Below, piece by piece: positions 10,368 to 59,714 of a stretch of 64,000 bases of DNA (position 1 is its first letter; each line of letters begins with the position of its first letter). Below the pieces are notes generated by a model that searched no databases, had not been told where the DNA came from, and saw nothing but the letters and a program-made list of their open reading frames with translations. The DNA comes from Kangiella sp. (GTDB taxonomy: Bacteria > Pseudomonadota > Gammaproteobacteria > Enterobacterales > Kangiellaceae): NCBI RefSeq assembly GCF_014762745.1, contig NZ_JABURJ010000015.1, forward strand, positions 21,303 to 85,302, read 5' to 3'. The position numbers were made by a program, and so were the translations under genes.

Positions 10368-10378
10368 ATCATTCGGGT

Positions 10379-10390
10379 ACGCTACCGCCC
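10379..10390 (-). promoter_or_regulatory. ops element (RfaH loading site, JUMPstart)
   Basis: Minus strand GGGCGGTAGCGT, matching the ops consensus GGCGGTAGnnT, between rfaH and the first polysaccharide-operon gene. Confidence 0.85.
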
Positions 10391-10534
10391 GTGGGTTTTG
10401 GTTCCCAAAGCACCATAGCAGCCAGCCCATCTGTTTGTTTTTTGTCCGCTTTTTTTACAAATTCTCAAATCGCGCGCTATTATAGTCAAATAGCTCACAA
10501 TTGTAACCGCAAGATTTAATTAATTTCCGTCCAT

Positions 10535-15902: not shown

Positions 15903-15978
15903 TCCCCCTTAGTTCAGTTGGTAGAACGGTGGACTGTTAATCCATATGTCGCTGGTTCAAGTCCAGCAGGGGGAGCCA
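15903..15978 (+). tRNA. tRNA-Asn (GTT)
   Basis: Acceptor stem TCCCCCT/AGGGGGA, anticodon arm GTGGA-CTGTTAA-TCCAT, GGTTCAAGTCC T-loop, encoded CCA. Confidence 0.97.
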
Positions 15979-18518: not shown

Positions 18519-18722
18519 TGTAATAACCGTAAAATATGAATCACGACTGTTAAGCCGTATTTAAAAACAAGCAGGAAATACTCGCAGCCAGGGGCGAGCC
18601 AATTGATAACTAGAGGTGTTATCTAAGGGAATAAGTGTGCGCTATGGCGGACTAATGAGCATTAAAACTCGGTTCTGGCTAAAAGGAGCGCGGAGTTTAC
18701 CAGCGAGGATAGTCAATTACAA
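18519..18722 (-). promoter_or_regulatory. sulP promoter and long 5' leader, possible cis-regulatory RNA (sul1-like)
   Basis: TTGTAA-17bp-TAAACT (18722-18694) gives a ~170-nt leader with AAACTC/GAGTTT complementarity. The family assignment is unverified. Confidence 0.4.
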
Positions 18723-18775
18723 ATTAACTTGATTGCCTCAGGAGCTAAGATTAGTAATGTCGGTAGCCGCTTGGC

Positions 18776-18858
18776 TGGGTCTCCCCCTTCGGGGATTTCC
18801 GACCTACGGAGTGAAGCATGAGCAATTGTTGGGATTCACTCTGTTCATCCCCACCTAC
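18776..18858 (-). repeat. Two GTAG-type REP-like elements
   Basis: GTAGGTCGGAAATCCCC-GAA-GGGGG (18807-18776) and GTAGGTGGGGATGAACAGAGTGAATCCCAAC (18858-18828). The second is 24/31 identical to 5314-5344. Confidence 0.6.
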
Positions 18859-18927
18859 ATCCACCCAAAGTACTTTGGCCTGCTACAGGCATGATCGTCC
18901 ACTCTAAAGTGGCTAAATATTTTGGGC

Positions 18928-19100
18928 AAAAAAAAAGCCGAGAACGAATCTCGGCCAAATCCCACCATATAGCTGAAGGAAAACTGATTAGGGGTATGCC
19001 CTATTTCTGAAATGGAAACTTTTGCTTCAATACGATTCAATACTTTATTTGTCTTCCACTCTGTGATACAAATAGCTATCGAATGCATTTCAGAACTTGG
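18928..19100 (-). ncRNA. Candidate ~170-nt small RNA transcribed divergently from the XRE regulator
   Basis: Promoter TTGATT-17-TATTAT (19134-19106) and terminator GCCGAGA-TTCGT-TCTCGGC-T9 (18954-18928). No ORF with an RBS fits between them. Confidence 0.5.
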
Positions 19101-19105
19101 TTTAA

Positions 19106-19134
19106 ATAATAATGCAAATATGCATACAAATCAA
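19106..19134 (-). promoter_or_regulatory. sigma70 promoter with an ATGCA-N4-TGCAT operator-like palindrome in its spacer
   Basis: -35 at 19134-19129, -10 at 19111-19106, inverted repeat 19112-19125, extra TGCAT half-sites at 19083 and 19143. Confidence 0.55.
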
Positions 19135-19165
19135 ACCGAATTTGCATCTTTTTTAGGAAATCTGA

Positions 19166-19555
19166 ATGAGCGAAATAATTGATCAACTAAAACAGCTTAT
19201 GCAAAGCCTTGGAGAAACGGATTATTCCATGCAGCATAAGGCTCACATCAGCCAATCGACCATTTATCGTATTTTAGAGGGGAAAACATCTGATCCAGGT
19301 GTTCATAAAATCGATGGTTTGGCTAGAGCGCTTGGATATAGGCTGGCTCTGGTTCCAATGAGCGAATACTATACTCAGGTAGATTATGGTGCAGAGGTTG
19401 ACACACTTGGCAAAATCATCGCCTTAGTAGAGTCACTATCAACAACTCGCGGTATTAACCTTACTCCTGAAGAGAAAGCAGAATTAATCCTCCAAAACTA
19501 TCGTGCTAATAGCAGTAAAGAAGAACTTGGGGTTAGAATCGCCAATTTGAAGTAG
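19166..19555 (+). CDS. XRE/cI-like helix-turn-helix transcriptional regulator
   Basis: ISQSTIYRILEGKTSDPGVHKIDGLARALG HTH_3 pattern, C-terminal LTPEEKAELI helix, AGGA RBS. Confidence 0.85.
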   Translation: MSEIIDQLKQLMQSLGETDYSMQHKAHISQSTIYRILEGKTSDPGVHKIDGLARALGYRLALVPMSEYYTQVDYGAEVDTLGKIIALVESLSTTRGINLTPEEKAELILQNYRANSSKEELGVRIANLK

Positions 19556-19605: not shown

Positions 19606-19632
19606 AAAGGCCTGCAATTGCAGGCCTTTTTT
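19606..19632. terminator. Bidirectional intrinsic terminator between convergent genes
   Basis: AAAGGCCTGC-AATT-GCAGGCCTTT followed by TTT. Confidence 0.8.
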
Positions 19633-19654: not shown

Positions 19655-20041
19655 TTAAGTTCTAGTGAACTCTGTTGGCGCTTTAGTGCTTTGTAGCTGA
19701 ATAGGCTTTAAGAAACCACGTGATTGAATAATACGTCGATTATTGGTTTCAAACTCCTGTAGCTTTTGGTTCCACAACAGAATCTCACGCAACTTATCTT
19801 TCTCAGGTAAGTTGCTAGACTCAATCTGTGAATATTCCTGGAGCAAACGCAAACCAATCATATCAGCTCGTTGGAAAGCTGATAGATCTATAACGTTGCC
19901 ATTAGACTCATATTCGCTATCTAGCGAATACTCATCATAAGGAACGTCGATTCGTCCGCGGTAAGCTTTCAGGATTAGCCAAAACAGCGCTGCTGCGAAC
20001 GCTGCTAACACTAAACCGTAGGCCAAAAATAGTAATGCCAT
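19655..20041 (-). CDS. Hypothetical single-pass membrane protein
   Basis: N-terminal TM (LLFLAYGLVLAAFAAALFWLIL) then KAYRGR, AGGAAG upstream, ends just before the terminator; overlaps the upstream ORF by 107 nt. Confidence 0.6.
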   Translation of the reverse strand: MALLFLAYGLVLAAFAAALFWLILKAYRGRIDVPYDEYSLDSEYESNGNVIDLSAFQRADMIGLRLLQEYSQIESSNLPEKDKLREILLWNQKLQEFETNNRRIIQSRGFLKPIQLQSTKAPTEFTRT

Positions 20042-20531
20042 TGATTTTTCTTCCTAATGTTACCACCAGCTGTTTAGCCACTGGTGTTAATAAAGCTAAT
20101 ATGATGCAGATGTTTACGGCATTCAGCGTATAGCTTTGTATGCCTTTTATTATTTCGAAATCTGTATAGTGTCTTTCTATAAAACGGATTAAGTGAAATC
20201 CAATTGCAAGAATAGTTAGCACACTTACTGCAAACTCTTCTTTTAAAACTCTACCAGTGGTCACTGCTCTATAAGCCACATAGAGTAGTATCAATATATC
20301 TGTGACCATCCACGATATATACCATATAAACTTTGCTTCTGTATGATTCCAAAGAATTGGAGTAATAATCCAATTTATAAACTGAATTACAACAATTGCC
20401 ATACAAAACTGAACAAGCCTTGAGTTCTTTGTAAATGCCAAATGCAAAATTAAACACCCCACAAGCGATAAAGTAAAAATATCGCTCGTGAGGTCAAGTA
20501 AGTTATACTGATTTACAAAGTTTTGAATCAA
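19935..20531 (-). CDS. Hypothetical polytopic membrane protein (~5 TM)
   Basis: Five hydrophobic segments separated by short charged loops; TTG start overlaps the stop of the upstream peptide ORF (TTGA). Confidence 0.75.
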   Translation of the reverse strand: MIQNFVNQYNLLDLTSDIFTLSLVGCLILHLAFTKNSRLVQFCMAIVVIQFINWIITPILWNHTEAKFIWYISWMVTDILILLYVAYRAVTTGRVLKEEFAVSVLTILAIGFHLIRFIERHYTDFEIIKGIQSYTLNAVNICIILALLTPVAKQLVVTLGRKINGITIFGLRFSVSSVRSSAVLANPESLPRTNRRSL

Positions 20532-20907: not shown

Positions 20908-21525
20908 ATGAGTCGATTTCTTAAAAAATACGCATTCGCATTACTCTTAAGTCATATTTGCATTATTAGCTACCTACTTTTGCCTCAATCTAACTTATGG
21001 ATGGCTTATGATCGACCCCTTGTCGAAAATGGACAGTGGTGGCGCTTTATTACAGCAAACCTGGTTCACCTTGGTGGCTGGCATACCATTATGAACTTAG
21101 CCAGTCTTTGGCTGATTAGCTTTATCTTTCAGCCACTGTTAAAAATGTCTCACTGGATTGGTTGGGTGCTACTGCTTTACTTTGTTAACATCTTGGCGAT
21201 GCATCTATGGACCCCACATATTATTCACTACGTTGGTATGTCCGGGGCTCTATACGGATTGATTGCGGCATGTGCGACTGCAGAGCTAAGACTTGGTGTA
21301 AAAATCAGTGGTGTACTGCTGATTATCGTCGGCATAAAAATCTTTTTGCCACAAATTGTTGGTGTTGAATCTGAATATGATGAATTTTTAGGTGGGGCAG
21401 TGGTTGAAGAGTCTCATATTATAGGCTTTATTCAGGGGATCATTCTCGGTCTCTTGTGGCCTAAGCAATTACTGAACGGGCCAGTGCTTCAGTCAATCCT
21501 CAAATCAAACAAGTCTAAAGAATAA
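20908..21525 (+). CDS. Rhombosortase (rhomboid protease, GlyGly-CTERM processing)
   Basis: GQWWRFITANLVH....H..MN, YVGMSGALYG catalytic Ser, late H (ESHIIG). Confidence 0.75.
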   Translation: MSRFLKKYAFALLLSHICIISYLLLPQSNLWMAYDRPLVENGQWWRFITANLVHLGGWHTIMNLASLWLISFIFQPLLKMSHWIGWVLLLYFVNILAMHLWTPHIIHYVGMSGALYGLIAACATAELRLGVKISGVLLIIVGIKIFLPQIVGVESEYDEFLGGAVVEESHIIGFIQGIILGLLWPKQLLNGPVLQSILKSNKSKE

Positions 21526-55756: not shown

Positions 55757-55928
55757 CCTGGTAAGATCTACTCAAGAACCCTCGTATCCCGATAAACATT
55801 AACTCATAAAATTTGTTAAACACCTCACAAATGAGGCGCAAGCCTCTTGTTTTTTTATAAACAATATAAAAATTTATTTTGCCTACTTTGATAGGTCCTA
55901 GTTTATAGCTGAAAATAAAGGAGACATT

Positions 55929-56153
55929 ATGAAAAAAATGACTATCGGATTACTTTCCGCTGGATTAATTCTTTTTGTAGTATTTTTTAACTCTATATCT
56001 AAAGCTGCGATACACGTTACTGAAGATGGCGTCTATTGTGATAACGGGTGCGACGTATATGGTGGCTGGGGTAGTGTCACGATATGCGATGGAGGCACAA
56101 CAAACTGCATAAGAATGCCATCTGGGACACGTATACTTAACAAACCTCTGTAA
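55929..56153 (+). CDS. Small secreted Cys-containing hypothetical protein (74 aa)
   Basis: GGAG RBS, signal peptide ending SKA-A, four Cys in the mature part. Confidence 0.7.
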   Translation: MKKMTIGLLSAGLILFVVFFNSISKAAIHVTEDGVYCDNGCDVYGGWGSVTICDGGTTNCIRMPSGTRILNKPL

Positions 56154-59342: not shown

Positions 59343-59468
59343 CCTAAGTTATATAGAAAATTAGCTTTATGCCATTTAGTTAATTCAAAGCTATGAACAT
59401 ATACTTTTAAGAGCAGATAGCACCAATTACCCCCTTATATTGAGCTAAGGCACGTACAAAATATAGCA

Positions 59469-59714
59469 ATCAAAATCGTGGATGATTTTGATAAGAATTT
59501 TCAGCACAGGGATGTGATGTAAATTCTGGTGCGTTAAGTATTTTGGGAGTGACGCAGGTAGTCACGCAAAGCGTGACCTCAATATCGGGGTGTCGTTTCT
59601 TTTGGTCCCTTTTCTTTGGACAAGCAAAGAAAAGGGACTCGCTGAGTAGCGAAACAAAAACCATAGGAATGGACAAGCGAAAAGATCATGGATTCCCGCC
59701 TCCGCGGGAATGAC
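59469..59714. repeat. Second intergenic mosaic of palindromes, including a dRS3-like element
   Basis: ATCAAAATC-N6-GATTTTGAT (59469), GTAG-TCACGC-AAA-GCGTGA (59558), 14-bp stem GTCCCTTTTCTTTG/CAAAGAAAAGGGAC (59605-59638), ATTCCC-N8-GGGAAT (59692-59711). Confidence 0.7.

What the first reader, a model, noticed from the sequence alone, without database searches (positions are those of the whole stretch)
18928..19147. Candidate sRNA divergent from the XRE gene, with an operator exactly filling its promoter spacer
Seen: minus-strand TTGATT-17-TATTAT, whose spacer contains ATGCA-AATA-TGCAT, with two more TGCAT half-sites nearby. A strong terminator (7-bp GC stem plus T9) lies ~170 nt downstream, and no plausible ORF lies between. 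The XRE gene starts ~30 bp away in the opposite direction. Inference: a cI/cro-like divergent switch whose output is a non-coding RNA rather than a protein.
Basis: partly seen in the sequence, partly recalled or inferred. Interest (0 to 1): 0.65.

Follow-up and report, generated by a model that had tools for sequence, protein, structure and literature searches.

The report
Conserved small RNA facing its XRE repressor
A previously undescribed, structured ~170-nt small RNA gene sits next to a helix-turn-helix regulator in all Kangiella-like marine bacteria examined; its promoter carries the regulator's likely binding sites, and the regulator's own promoter appears to lie inside the RNA gene, facing it.

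Summary

None of these motifs is significant alone. All recur in the same register in 21 loci from Kangiella and related MAGs, where the XRE protein falls to 51% identity.

The RNA (18928-19099, minus) has three helices with compensatory changes and a 26-nt invariant stretch before the terminator. It has no conserved ORF and no Rfam family at threshold. It is always paired with the XRE gene, whereas the gene beyond its terminator varies.

The locus is core chromosome, not prophage. In distant relatives XRE forms an operon with rhombosortase.

The "cI/cro-like divergent" reading is only partly right. Metatranscriptome contigs place the XRE mRNA 5' end at or left of 19086, inside the RNA gene. 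A conserved extended -10 element lies just upstream of that point. The two promoters therefore appear to face each other, with about 21 nt of 5' overlap, as in coliphage 186.

No sRNA transcript was seen and its target is unknown.

The parts
18928..19099 (-). Predicted small RNA gene, about 172 nt. The start is taken 7 nt after the -10; the end is the T-run.
   Evidence: One covariance-model hit per locus in 21 loci, 49-217 bits. 94% of cells paired and 19 of 22 pairs with compensatory changes. Fold z-score -3.4. No conserved ORF.
19129..19134 (-). -35 of the sRNA promoter (TTGATT).
   Evidence: TTG plus 17-nt spacing kept in all 21 loci.
19106..19111 (-). -10 of the sRNA promoter (TATTAT; TAATAT or TAACAT elsewhere).
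19112..19125 (.). Operator O_B, ATGCA-N4-TGCAT, inside the promoter spacer.
   Evidence: The half-sites match in every sequence except the L010/L011 pair, which reads ATGCG. The N4 takes 10 different sequences.
19134..19147 (.). Operator O_A over and upstream of the -35. Degenerate in this window (ATGCA-AATT-CGGTT); a full palindrome in distant relatives. Its centre is 22 bp from that of O_B.
19083..19088 (.). Extra ATGCAT, seen mainly in the K. aquimarina/koreensis clade.
19086..19095 (-). P1 5' arm (sRNA nt 5-14, UUCUGAAAUG).
   Evidence: Pairs with 19005-19014. At least 8 different helix sequences across clades. Cognate versus non-cognate permutation p = 1e-5. 9 of 10 pairs show double changes.
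19005..19014 (-). P1 3' arm (sRNA nt 86-95, CAUUUCAGAA).
18989..19003 (-). P2 hairpin.
   Evidence: Found by the terminator scan. All 5 pairs show compensatory changes. Not evident by eye in the shorter RNAs of the distant clade.
18957..18982 (-). Invariant block UUUCCUUCAGCUAUAUGGUGGGAUUU, the presumed functional core or seed.
   Evidence: The 20-nt core is identical in every locus recovered, and the whole block differs only by one G to A change in L010/L011. Single copy in the window.
18928..18956 (-). Intrinsic terminator: 8-bp stem, 5-nt loop, T9.
   Evidence: 100% paired, 5 of 7 pairs with compensatory changes.
19044..19072 (+). Candidate XRE promoter inside the sRNA gene: TTTATT (19044-19049), 17 nt, TG (19064-19065), n, TACAAA (19067-19072). 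Predicted start about 19079.
   Evidence: CTTTATTT[GA]-N9-[CA]TGTGnTAnAA is present in all 21 loci. The N9 varies in sequence but has a fixed length, and the n takes all four bases. RNA contig ends fall at 19086-19096 in 5 runs.
19166..19555 (+). XRE-family regulator, 129 aa: N-terminal HTH plus two long C-terminal helices.
   Evidence: Pfam HTH_3, 25.4 bits against a cut-off of 23. Structure model. Recognition helix ISQSTIYRI invariant. The family comprises 22 clusters, all Kangiella-like.
19606..19629 (.). Hairpin terminator after XRE; the hairpin reads the same on both strands, with a T-run on the plus strand.
20908..21525 (+). Rhombosortase (rrtA). It directly follows XRE in distant relatives (adjoining it or 5-17 nt away). 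In this window it is separated from XRE by two inserted genes.
   Evidence: TIGR03902, 137 bits against a cut-off of 84. Synteny.

Best explanation
This is a lineage-specific, structured, non-coding small RNA of about 135-190 nt (172 nt here) found in Kangiellaceae-like gammaproteobacteria. It is made from a strong sigma-70 promoter and ended by an intrinsic terminator.

Inferred regulation: the neighbouring XRE protein binds as dimers to two ATGCA-N4-TGCAT operators, 22 bp apart centre to centre. One covers the -35 and the other fills the spacer. Binding would shut the sRNA promoter off.

Supported indirectly: the XRE promoter is a weak extended -10 element inside the sRNA gene. The two promoters face each other about 20 bp apart, and the two RNAs are complementary over their first 17-35 nt.

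Inferred consequence: the strong sRNA promoter would occlude or interfere with the weak XRE promoter. XRE would relieve this by repressing the sRNA promoter, giving a two-state switch of the coliphage 186 pR/pL type, with a possible roadblock on its own transcript.

Inferred output: the RNA itself acts in trans through the invariant 26-nt stretch just before its terminator, on a target that was not identified.
For: Conservation
- Promoter, operators, spacing, block and terminator are conserved in 21 loci.

Structure
- 94.4% of cells are paired and 19 of 22 pairs carry double changes. The covariation score is 0.465, against 0.135 +/- 0.016 in shuffles (0 of 500 reach it) and at most 0.094 when partners are slid.
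- P1 pairs better with its own partner than with partners from other clades (-13.4 versus -7.6 kcal/mol, p = 1e-5). The helices are at least as stable on the minus strand as on the opposite strand, and clearly more stable in five of nine clades.

Coding and annotation
- No conserved ORF. No Rfam family at threshold.

Linkage
- The RNA is always linked to XRE, while the gene beyond its terminator varies.
- The XRE recognition helix is invariant, as are the half-sites.

XRE 5' end
- Contig ends fall at about 19086, 19088, 19091, 19095 and 19096 in five RNA runs from five studies, and at 19107-19113 in four low-depth runs.
- The variable base of the conserved TGnTAnAA element is exactly the n of an extended -10, and the spacing to CTTTATTTG is fixed.

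Precedent
- The 186 pR/pL arrangement and relief of interference by CI are described in PMC3675496.
Against: - No sRNA-only transcript was seen. RNA contigs that contain XRE lack the sRNA region, including one at depth 735.
- The few low-depth contigs over 18927-19175 cross the promoter and may be DNA.
- Logan contigs carry no strand, so the XRE 5' end is inferred from where contigs stop.
- The candidate XRE -10 has no T at its last position in any clade, and its -35 is poor.
- CACAG and CAAAUAAAG could instead, or also, be RNA-level features, because a UUUAU/AUAAA pairing is possible.
- The covariation alignment was fitted to the model's structure.
- No conserved target was found. The best hit in the window is an orphan gene. 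Pairing with the XRE ribosome-binding site is not conserved.
- XRE binding to the palindromes is inference only.
Confidence: 0.6

Rival explanations
1. Back-to-back divergent switch. The XRE promoter would lie between the operator and the XRE start codon, and the transcripts would not overlap.
For: Many sRNA/regulator pairs are arranged this way. The operator lies between the two genes.
Against: Only 40 bp separate O_B from the ATG, and no conserved promoter-like element lies there. RNA contigs continuous with XRE reach left to 19086-19096 in five runs.
Confidence: 0.1
2. The minus-strand RNA works only in cis. Its promoter and its 5' overlap interfere with or pair with the XRE mRNA, and the rest of the RNA has no target of its own.
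For: The geometry is face-to-face with 17-35 nt of 5' complementarity in all clades. No trans target was found.
Against: A 26-nt invariant block and three covarying helices far from the overlap would be unexplained. The overlap ends at least 65 nt before the XRE ribosome-binding site. Its sequence is not conserved and is largely sequestered in P1.
Confidence: 0.15
3. The palindromes are not XRE operators. They bind another factor, or they act as small hairpins in the XRE 5' UTR RNA.
For: They lie at about +33 to +68 of the inferred XRE transcript, and no binding was tested.
Against: The stems show essentially no covariation, while the loops vary freely. That is the pattern of protein-DNA half-sites. 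They coincide with the -35 and spacer of the sRNA promoter. They co-occur only with this XRE family.
Confidence: 0.1
4. The transcript is an mRNA for a small protein: either the 77-aa ORF or the MVGFG... ORF that starts in the block.
For: ORFs exist in this window.
Against: The 77-aa ORF is absent from the closest relatives. Indels of 1-2 nt occur within the clade. The MVGFG ORF runs through the terminator, has variable length (absent, or 22-69 aa) and has no Shine-Dalgarno sequence.
Confidence: 0.02
5. The invariant block is a DNA-level site, such as an integration site, rather than an RNA feature.
For: The DNA just beyond the terminator differs between strains.
Against: There is no second copy or partial repeat in the window, no integrase nearby, and the variable DNA starts after the terminator rather than in the block.
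Confidence: 0.03

Closest known systems
Coliphage 186 pR/pL switch (the P2 Pe/Pc switch is similar, from my own knowledge)
   Same: A strong and a weak promoter face each other and their transcripts overlap. The repressor is made from the weak promoter and its operators lie over the strong one. Repression would relieve interference (PMC3675496).
   Different: This locus is chromosomal, not phage. The start sites are about 20 bp apart rather than 62. The arm driven by the strong promoter is a terminated non-coding RNA, not a lytic operon. The repressor is a small XRE with a helical C-terminus, not 186 CI.
Lambda OR (PRM/PR, cI/cro)
   Same: An HTH repressor binds palindromic operators that overlap the opposing promoter, and adjacent sites are spaced for cooperative binding.
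   Different: The promoters are not back-to-back. There is no second repressor protein and no prophage.
sRNAs encoded next to their dedicated regulator (OxyR/OxyS, GcvA/GcvB, SgrR/SgrS, VqmA/VqmR; from my own knowledge)
   Same: An sRNA and its transcription factor form a conserved adjacent pair, and the sRNA acts in trans through a conserved seed.
   Different: Those regulators are activators transcribed back-to-back with the sRNA. Here the regulator looks like a repressor and its promoter lies within the sRNA gene.
IS10 RNA-IN/RNA-OUT and pCF10 prgQ/prgX (from my own knowledge)
   Same: Convergent promoters give transcripts with complementary 5' ends. In pCF10 an HTH repressor controls the opposing promoter.
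   Different: Here the overlap lies far from the ribosome-binding site, and the RNA has a large conserved part outside the overlap.
Rfam STnc480 and SorX (sub-threshold hits)
   Same: A terminator preceded by a short similar stretch.
   Different: Scores of 34 against 72 and 27 against 46.6. STnc480 maps to the glxK/allE convergent terminator in E. coli and has no XRE neighbour.

Membership tests
Any Rfam 15 family | Score at or above the family's gathering threshold. | tested here: not met
   The best hits are STnc480 (34.1 against 72), SorX (26.9 against 46.6) and anti-hemB (22.9 against 49.5). The whole-window gathering search gives nothing at this locus.
Trans-acting bacterial sRNA (kind) | Own promoter, intrinsic terminator, and no conserved ORF. 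| tested here: met
   The promoter is inferred from conservation, not from a mapped start site.
Trans-acting bacterial sRNA (kind) | The RNA is detectably expressed. | tested here: inconclusive
   There is no sRNA-only contig in 20 RNA or unlabelled runs. Low-depth contigs cross the region in X22, X28 and X35.
Trans-acting bacterial sRNA (kind) | A conserved seed complementary to conserved target mRNAs. | tested here: inconclusive
   A 26-nt invariant block exists. Only 64 kb plus the neighbouring loci could be scanned, and no conserved target emerged.
Trans-acting bacterial sRNA (kind) | Binding by Hfq or ProQ. | not testable with these tools
   Needs co-immunoprecipitation.
Lambda-type divergent cI/cro switch | Back-to-back promoters sharing operators, with non-overlapping transcripts. 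| tested here: not met
   The XRE RNA reaches 19086 or further left, beyond the sRNA start at about 19099. The conserved plus-strand promoter lies inside the sRNA gene.
Lambda-type divergent cI/cro switch | Prophage context and two antagonistic proteins. | tested here: not met
   Core-genome synteny XRE-rrtA-comEA-pyrF-lapB. No hit in viral contigs. The other arm is non-coding.
186/P2-type face-to-face switch | Convergent promoters with overlapping transcripts, and repressor operators over the stronger promoter. | tested here: met
   Met by sequence and unstranded RNA contigs only. No start site was mapped.
186/P2-type face-to-face switch | Interference of the strong promoter with the weak one, relieved by the repressor. 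| not testable with these tools
   Needs reporter fusions.
XRE / HTH_3 regulators | Pfam HTH_3 at or above the gathering score. | tested here: met
   25.4 bits against 23. The best fold matches are 434 Cro, SinR and C.BclI, but the model is poor (pLDDT 66) and none is significant.
IS10 RNA-OUT-type cis-antisense RNA | The 5' overlap covers the target's ribosome-binding site. | tested here: not met
   The overlap is about 19079-19099, while the XRE RBS is at about 19155-19160.

The most novel reading that the evidence does not exclude
A chromosomal, non-phage two-state switch. A structured trans-acting sRNA gene physically contains the promoter of its own XRE repressor, so the two face each other with overlapping 5' ends. 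The repressor is ancestrally co-transcribed with rhombosortase. The switch would then choose between an XRE/rhombosortase state and an sRNA state, and the invariant 26-nt seed would control a conserved regulon, possibly surface or secreted GlyGly-CTERM proteins.
Probability: 0.3. Interest if true: 0.7.

Novelty: new member of a known kind. Interest (0 to 1): 0.5.

Why it matters
It adds a well-supported new sRNA family, absent from Rfam, in a marine lineage with no sRNA biology to date. The family comes with a ready-made regulatory hypothesis: a cognate repressor, two operators, and promoters that face each other. If the geometry is confirmed, it would be a compact cellular example of the interference-based switch known from phages 186 and P2, with an RNA as one arm. 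The ancestral link to rhombosortase suggests a testable connection between an sRNA and C-terminal protein sorting.

Tried and rejected
- Leader or riboswitch of the downstream SulP gene. Rejected because the downstream gene differs or is convergent in other clades.
- STnc480 homology. Rejected: the score is sub-threshold and in E. coli the element is the glxK/allE terminator.
- The 77-aa ORF and the MVGFG ORF. Not conserved.
- The sRNA block pairing with the XRE ribosome-binding site. Good in this window (9 of 10 pairs) but among the lowest-ranked in most clades.
- Neighbouring gene families as targets. None is consistently complementary.
- The 74-aa secreted Cys-rich ORF at 55929 as a target. 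It is the best hit in the window (z about -3.7), but the protein has no homologue at all, so it cannot explain an invariant seed.
- Phage origin. No viral contig carries the block.
- A second copy or repeat of the block in the window. None.
- The 410-nt spacer at 18520-18930. No Rfam or plasmid match and no unusual fold.
- K. koreensis RNA data. A TSS map exists (PMC4987935), but its supplement is not held and the locus could not be sent to the run search. The run suspected to be K. koreensis (X29) is not.
- XRE structure. The model confidence is too low for the fold matches to mean much.

Full report
**1. What is in the sequence**

The minus strand carries TTGATT (19134..19129), a 17-nt spacer and TATTAT (19111..19106). 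About 170 nt downstream lies an 8-bp GC-rich hairpin (18956..18936) followed by T9.

The palindrome ATGCA-AATA-TGCAT occupies 19112-19125. That is 14 of the 17 spacer bases, flush against the -10. Further half-sites lie at 19143-19147 and 19083-19088.

The XRE gene runs from 19166 to 19555. It scores 25.4 bits on Pfam HTH_3 against a cut-off of 23, and starts 31 bp from the -35.

Taken alone the motifs are unremarkable. The scan found 2 promoter-like sites against 3.3 expected. The palindrome occurs once against 0.26 expected.

**2. Organism and relatives**

The XRE protein finds only Kangiella and related uncultured gammaproteobacteria. There are 22 clusters at 51-97% identity and nothing else down to E = 1e-3, even when searching with a profile.

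I collected 21 loci in which the XRE gene and its upstream region could be read. A scan of viral contigs for the conserved RNA block found nothing.

**3. The RNA gene is conserved as a unit with XRE**

Every locus has the same layout in the same register:
- two 14-bp sites ATGCA-N4-TGCAT separated by 8 bp;
- TTGnnn, then 17 nt, then TAnnAT;
- a variable 5' region;
- CACAG, then 9 variable nt, then (C/T)AAATAAAG;
- a variable stretch;
- the invariant UUUCCUUCAGCUAUAUGGUGG(G/A)AUUU;
- a terminator.

The upstream operator (O_A) is a full palindrome in distant relatives. In this window's clade only one of its half-sites remains.

The N4 of the operators takes at least ten sequences, while the half-sites stay fixed. 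This is the pattern expected of a dimeric HTH site. The XRE recognition helix (ISQSTIYRI) is likewise invariant.

The gene beyond the RNA's terminator is not conserved. It is SulP on the same strand here, and a convergent gene elsewhere. The RNA is therefore not a leader of SulP.

**4. It is a structured RNA on the minus strand**

Each homologue folds with a long-range helix P1. P1 joins nt 4-14 to the segment just before the 3' domain. P1 has a different sequence in at least eight clades:
- UUCUGAAAUG/CAUUUCAGAA
- ACUUUAAUC/GAUUAAAGU
- UUUACUU/AAGUAAA
- CUAGUUCA/UGAGCUAG
- UAGUUAAAU/AUUUAACUA
- UCCGGUUAAAU/AUUUGAACUGGA
- UUCAAUUA/UAAUUGAA
- AAGGGAAAU/AUUUCCCUU

Each 5' arm pairs much better with its own partner than with partners from other clades. 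The means are -13.4 and -7.6 kcal/mol, with permutation p = 1e-5. The helices are at least as stable on the minus strand as on the complement, and clearly more stable in five of nine clades, because of G-U pairs.

A covariance model built from the closest clade finds exactly one hit per locus, at 49-217 bits. On the resulting alignment:
- 94.4% of cells pair;
- 19 of 22 pairs carry changes on both sides;
- the covariation score is 0.465, against 0.135 +/- 0.016 for shuffles (0 of 500 reach it) and at most 0.094 for slid partners.

That alignment is fitted to the model, so the numbers lean towards the structure. The energy test does not depend on any alignment.

No reading frame is conserved. 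The 77-aa ORF is unique to this window, and indels of 1-2 nt occur within the clade. No Rfam family reaches threshold. The STnc480 near-hit corresponds to the glxK/allE terminator region of E. coli and is unrelated.

**5. Where XRE transcription starts**

No stranded reads or raw reads were available. Only unstranded assemblies of public metatranscriptomes could be used.

Contigs continuous with the XRE coding region stop on the left at these positions:
- about 19086 (X29, depth 735), 19088 (X27), 19091 (X6), 19095 (X36) and 19096 (X32);
- 19107-19113 in four low-depth runs.

DNA-like assemblies run straight through (X21, X23, X24, X25). The XRE mRNA therefore begins at or left of about 19086. 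That is on the far side of the sRNA promoter and inside the sRNA gene.

The only plus-strand promoter-like element conserved there is TTTATT (19044-19049), 17 nt, TG-n-TACAAA (19064-19072). Across loci TGTG and TA-AA are fixed. The n takes all four bases, and the spacing to CTTTATTTG is constant although the intervening 9 nt vary. The predicted start is about 19079.

The two promoters therefore face each other. The RNAs overlap by about 21 nt here and by 17-35 nt in other clades. The operators lie at about +33 to +68 of the XRE transcript.

Caveats:
- the hexamer has no T at its last position;
- the same conserved bases could also have a role in the RNA;
- a contig end is not a mapped start site.

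**6. Was the sRNA itself seen?**

No. Runs with good XRE coverage have no contig over 18930-19085. Three low-depth runs have contigs spanning 18927/18961/18974 to 19151/19154/19175. These cross the sRNA promoter and may be DNA.

This absence is compatible with repression by XRE, or with loss of a 170-nt structured RNA during library preparation. It is still the main gap in the evidence.

**7. Context**

In the distant clade the XRE gene is directly followed by a rhomboid gene, adjoining it or 5-17 nt away. After that come comEA-like, pyrF, lapB and lapA genes. The rhomboid is a rhombosortase (TIGR03902, 137 bits against 84).

In Kangiella proper, two unknown genes (128 and 198 aa) have been inserted between XRE and rrtA. 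They are duplicated in some species. This is core chromosome, not a prophage.

The XRE model is of low confidence (pLDDT 66). It shows an HTH domain followed by two long helices. The fold matches (434 Cro, SinR, C.BclI) are not significant.

**8. Mechanism proposed**

Shown by sequence comparison:
- a conserved promoter, operators and terminator;
- a covarying structure;
- an invariant block.

Supported indirectly:
- the XRE start inside the RNA gene.

Inferred:
- XRE dimers bind O_A and O_B on the same face of the helix, 22 bp apart, and repress the sRNA promoter.
- The strong sRNA promoter (9 of 12 consensus matches) interferes with the weak XRE promoter. XRE relieves this interference, as 186 CI does at pR/pL (PMC3675496).
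- The RNA acts in trans through the block.

Target searches in the window and in neighbouring loci gave nothing conserved.

**9. Verdict**

This is a new sRNA family with its cognate regulator, which is a known kind of system. The promoter arrangement is uncommon and attractive, but it still needs a mapped start site. A published K. koreensis TAP+/- map should settle both points (PMC4987935).

Noticed in passing
window 19655-20531 (-): Two overlapping genes of unknown function (128 aa and 198 aa, membrane-like, no Pfam or NCBIfam hit) lie between XRE and rhombosortase. They are absent from distant relatives and tandemly duplicated in K. taiwanensis, K. spongicola and K. japonica.
   Followed up: partly
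window 18520-18930: A 410-nt non-coding spacer lies between the sRNA terminator and SulP, with a GC-rich middle part. It has no Rfam or plasmid match and no unusual fold. It varies between strains: one run replaces 98 nt with 105 others at 18807-18906.
   Followed up: partly
window 59442-59560 (+): A TwoAYGGAY RNA match just above the Rfam gathering score (46 against 43).
   Followed up: no
window 10378-10415 (-): A JUMPstart element match just above threshold (36 against 35).
   Followed up: no
window 55900-56153 (+): An orphan 74-aa secreted, Cys-rich ORF with no homologue in 5.8 billion proteins. Its leader has a 10-nt perfect match (UAUAGCUGAA) to the sRNA block, next to the Shine-Dalgarno sequence.
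   Followed up: yes
window 19166-19555 versus neighbouring genes: XRE is far better conserved than its neighbours between this genome and K. aquimarina: 98% amino-acid identity, against 89% for SulP, 88% for rhombosortase and 73% for the 198-aa protein.
   Followed up: no
window 15903-15978 (+): tRNA-Asn lies at the edge of the variable segment (usp-like gene plus SulP) that separates the sRNA from the conserved aminotransferase-like gene. This segment is absent in other Kangiella clades.
   Followed up: no
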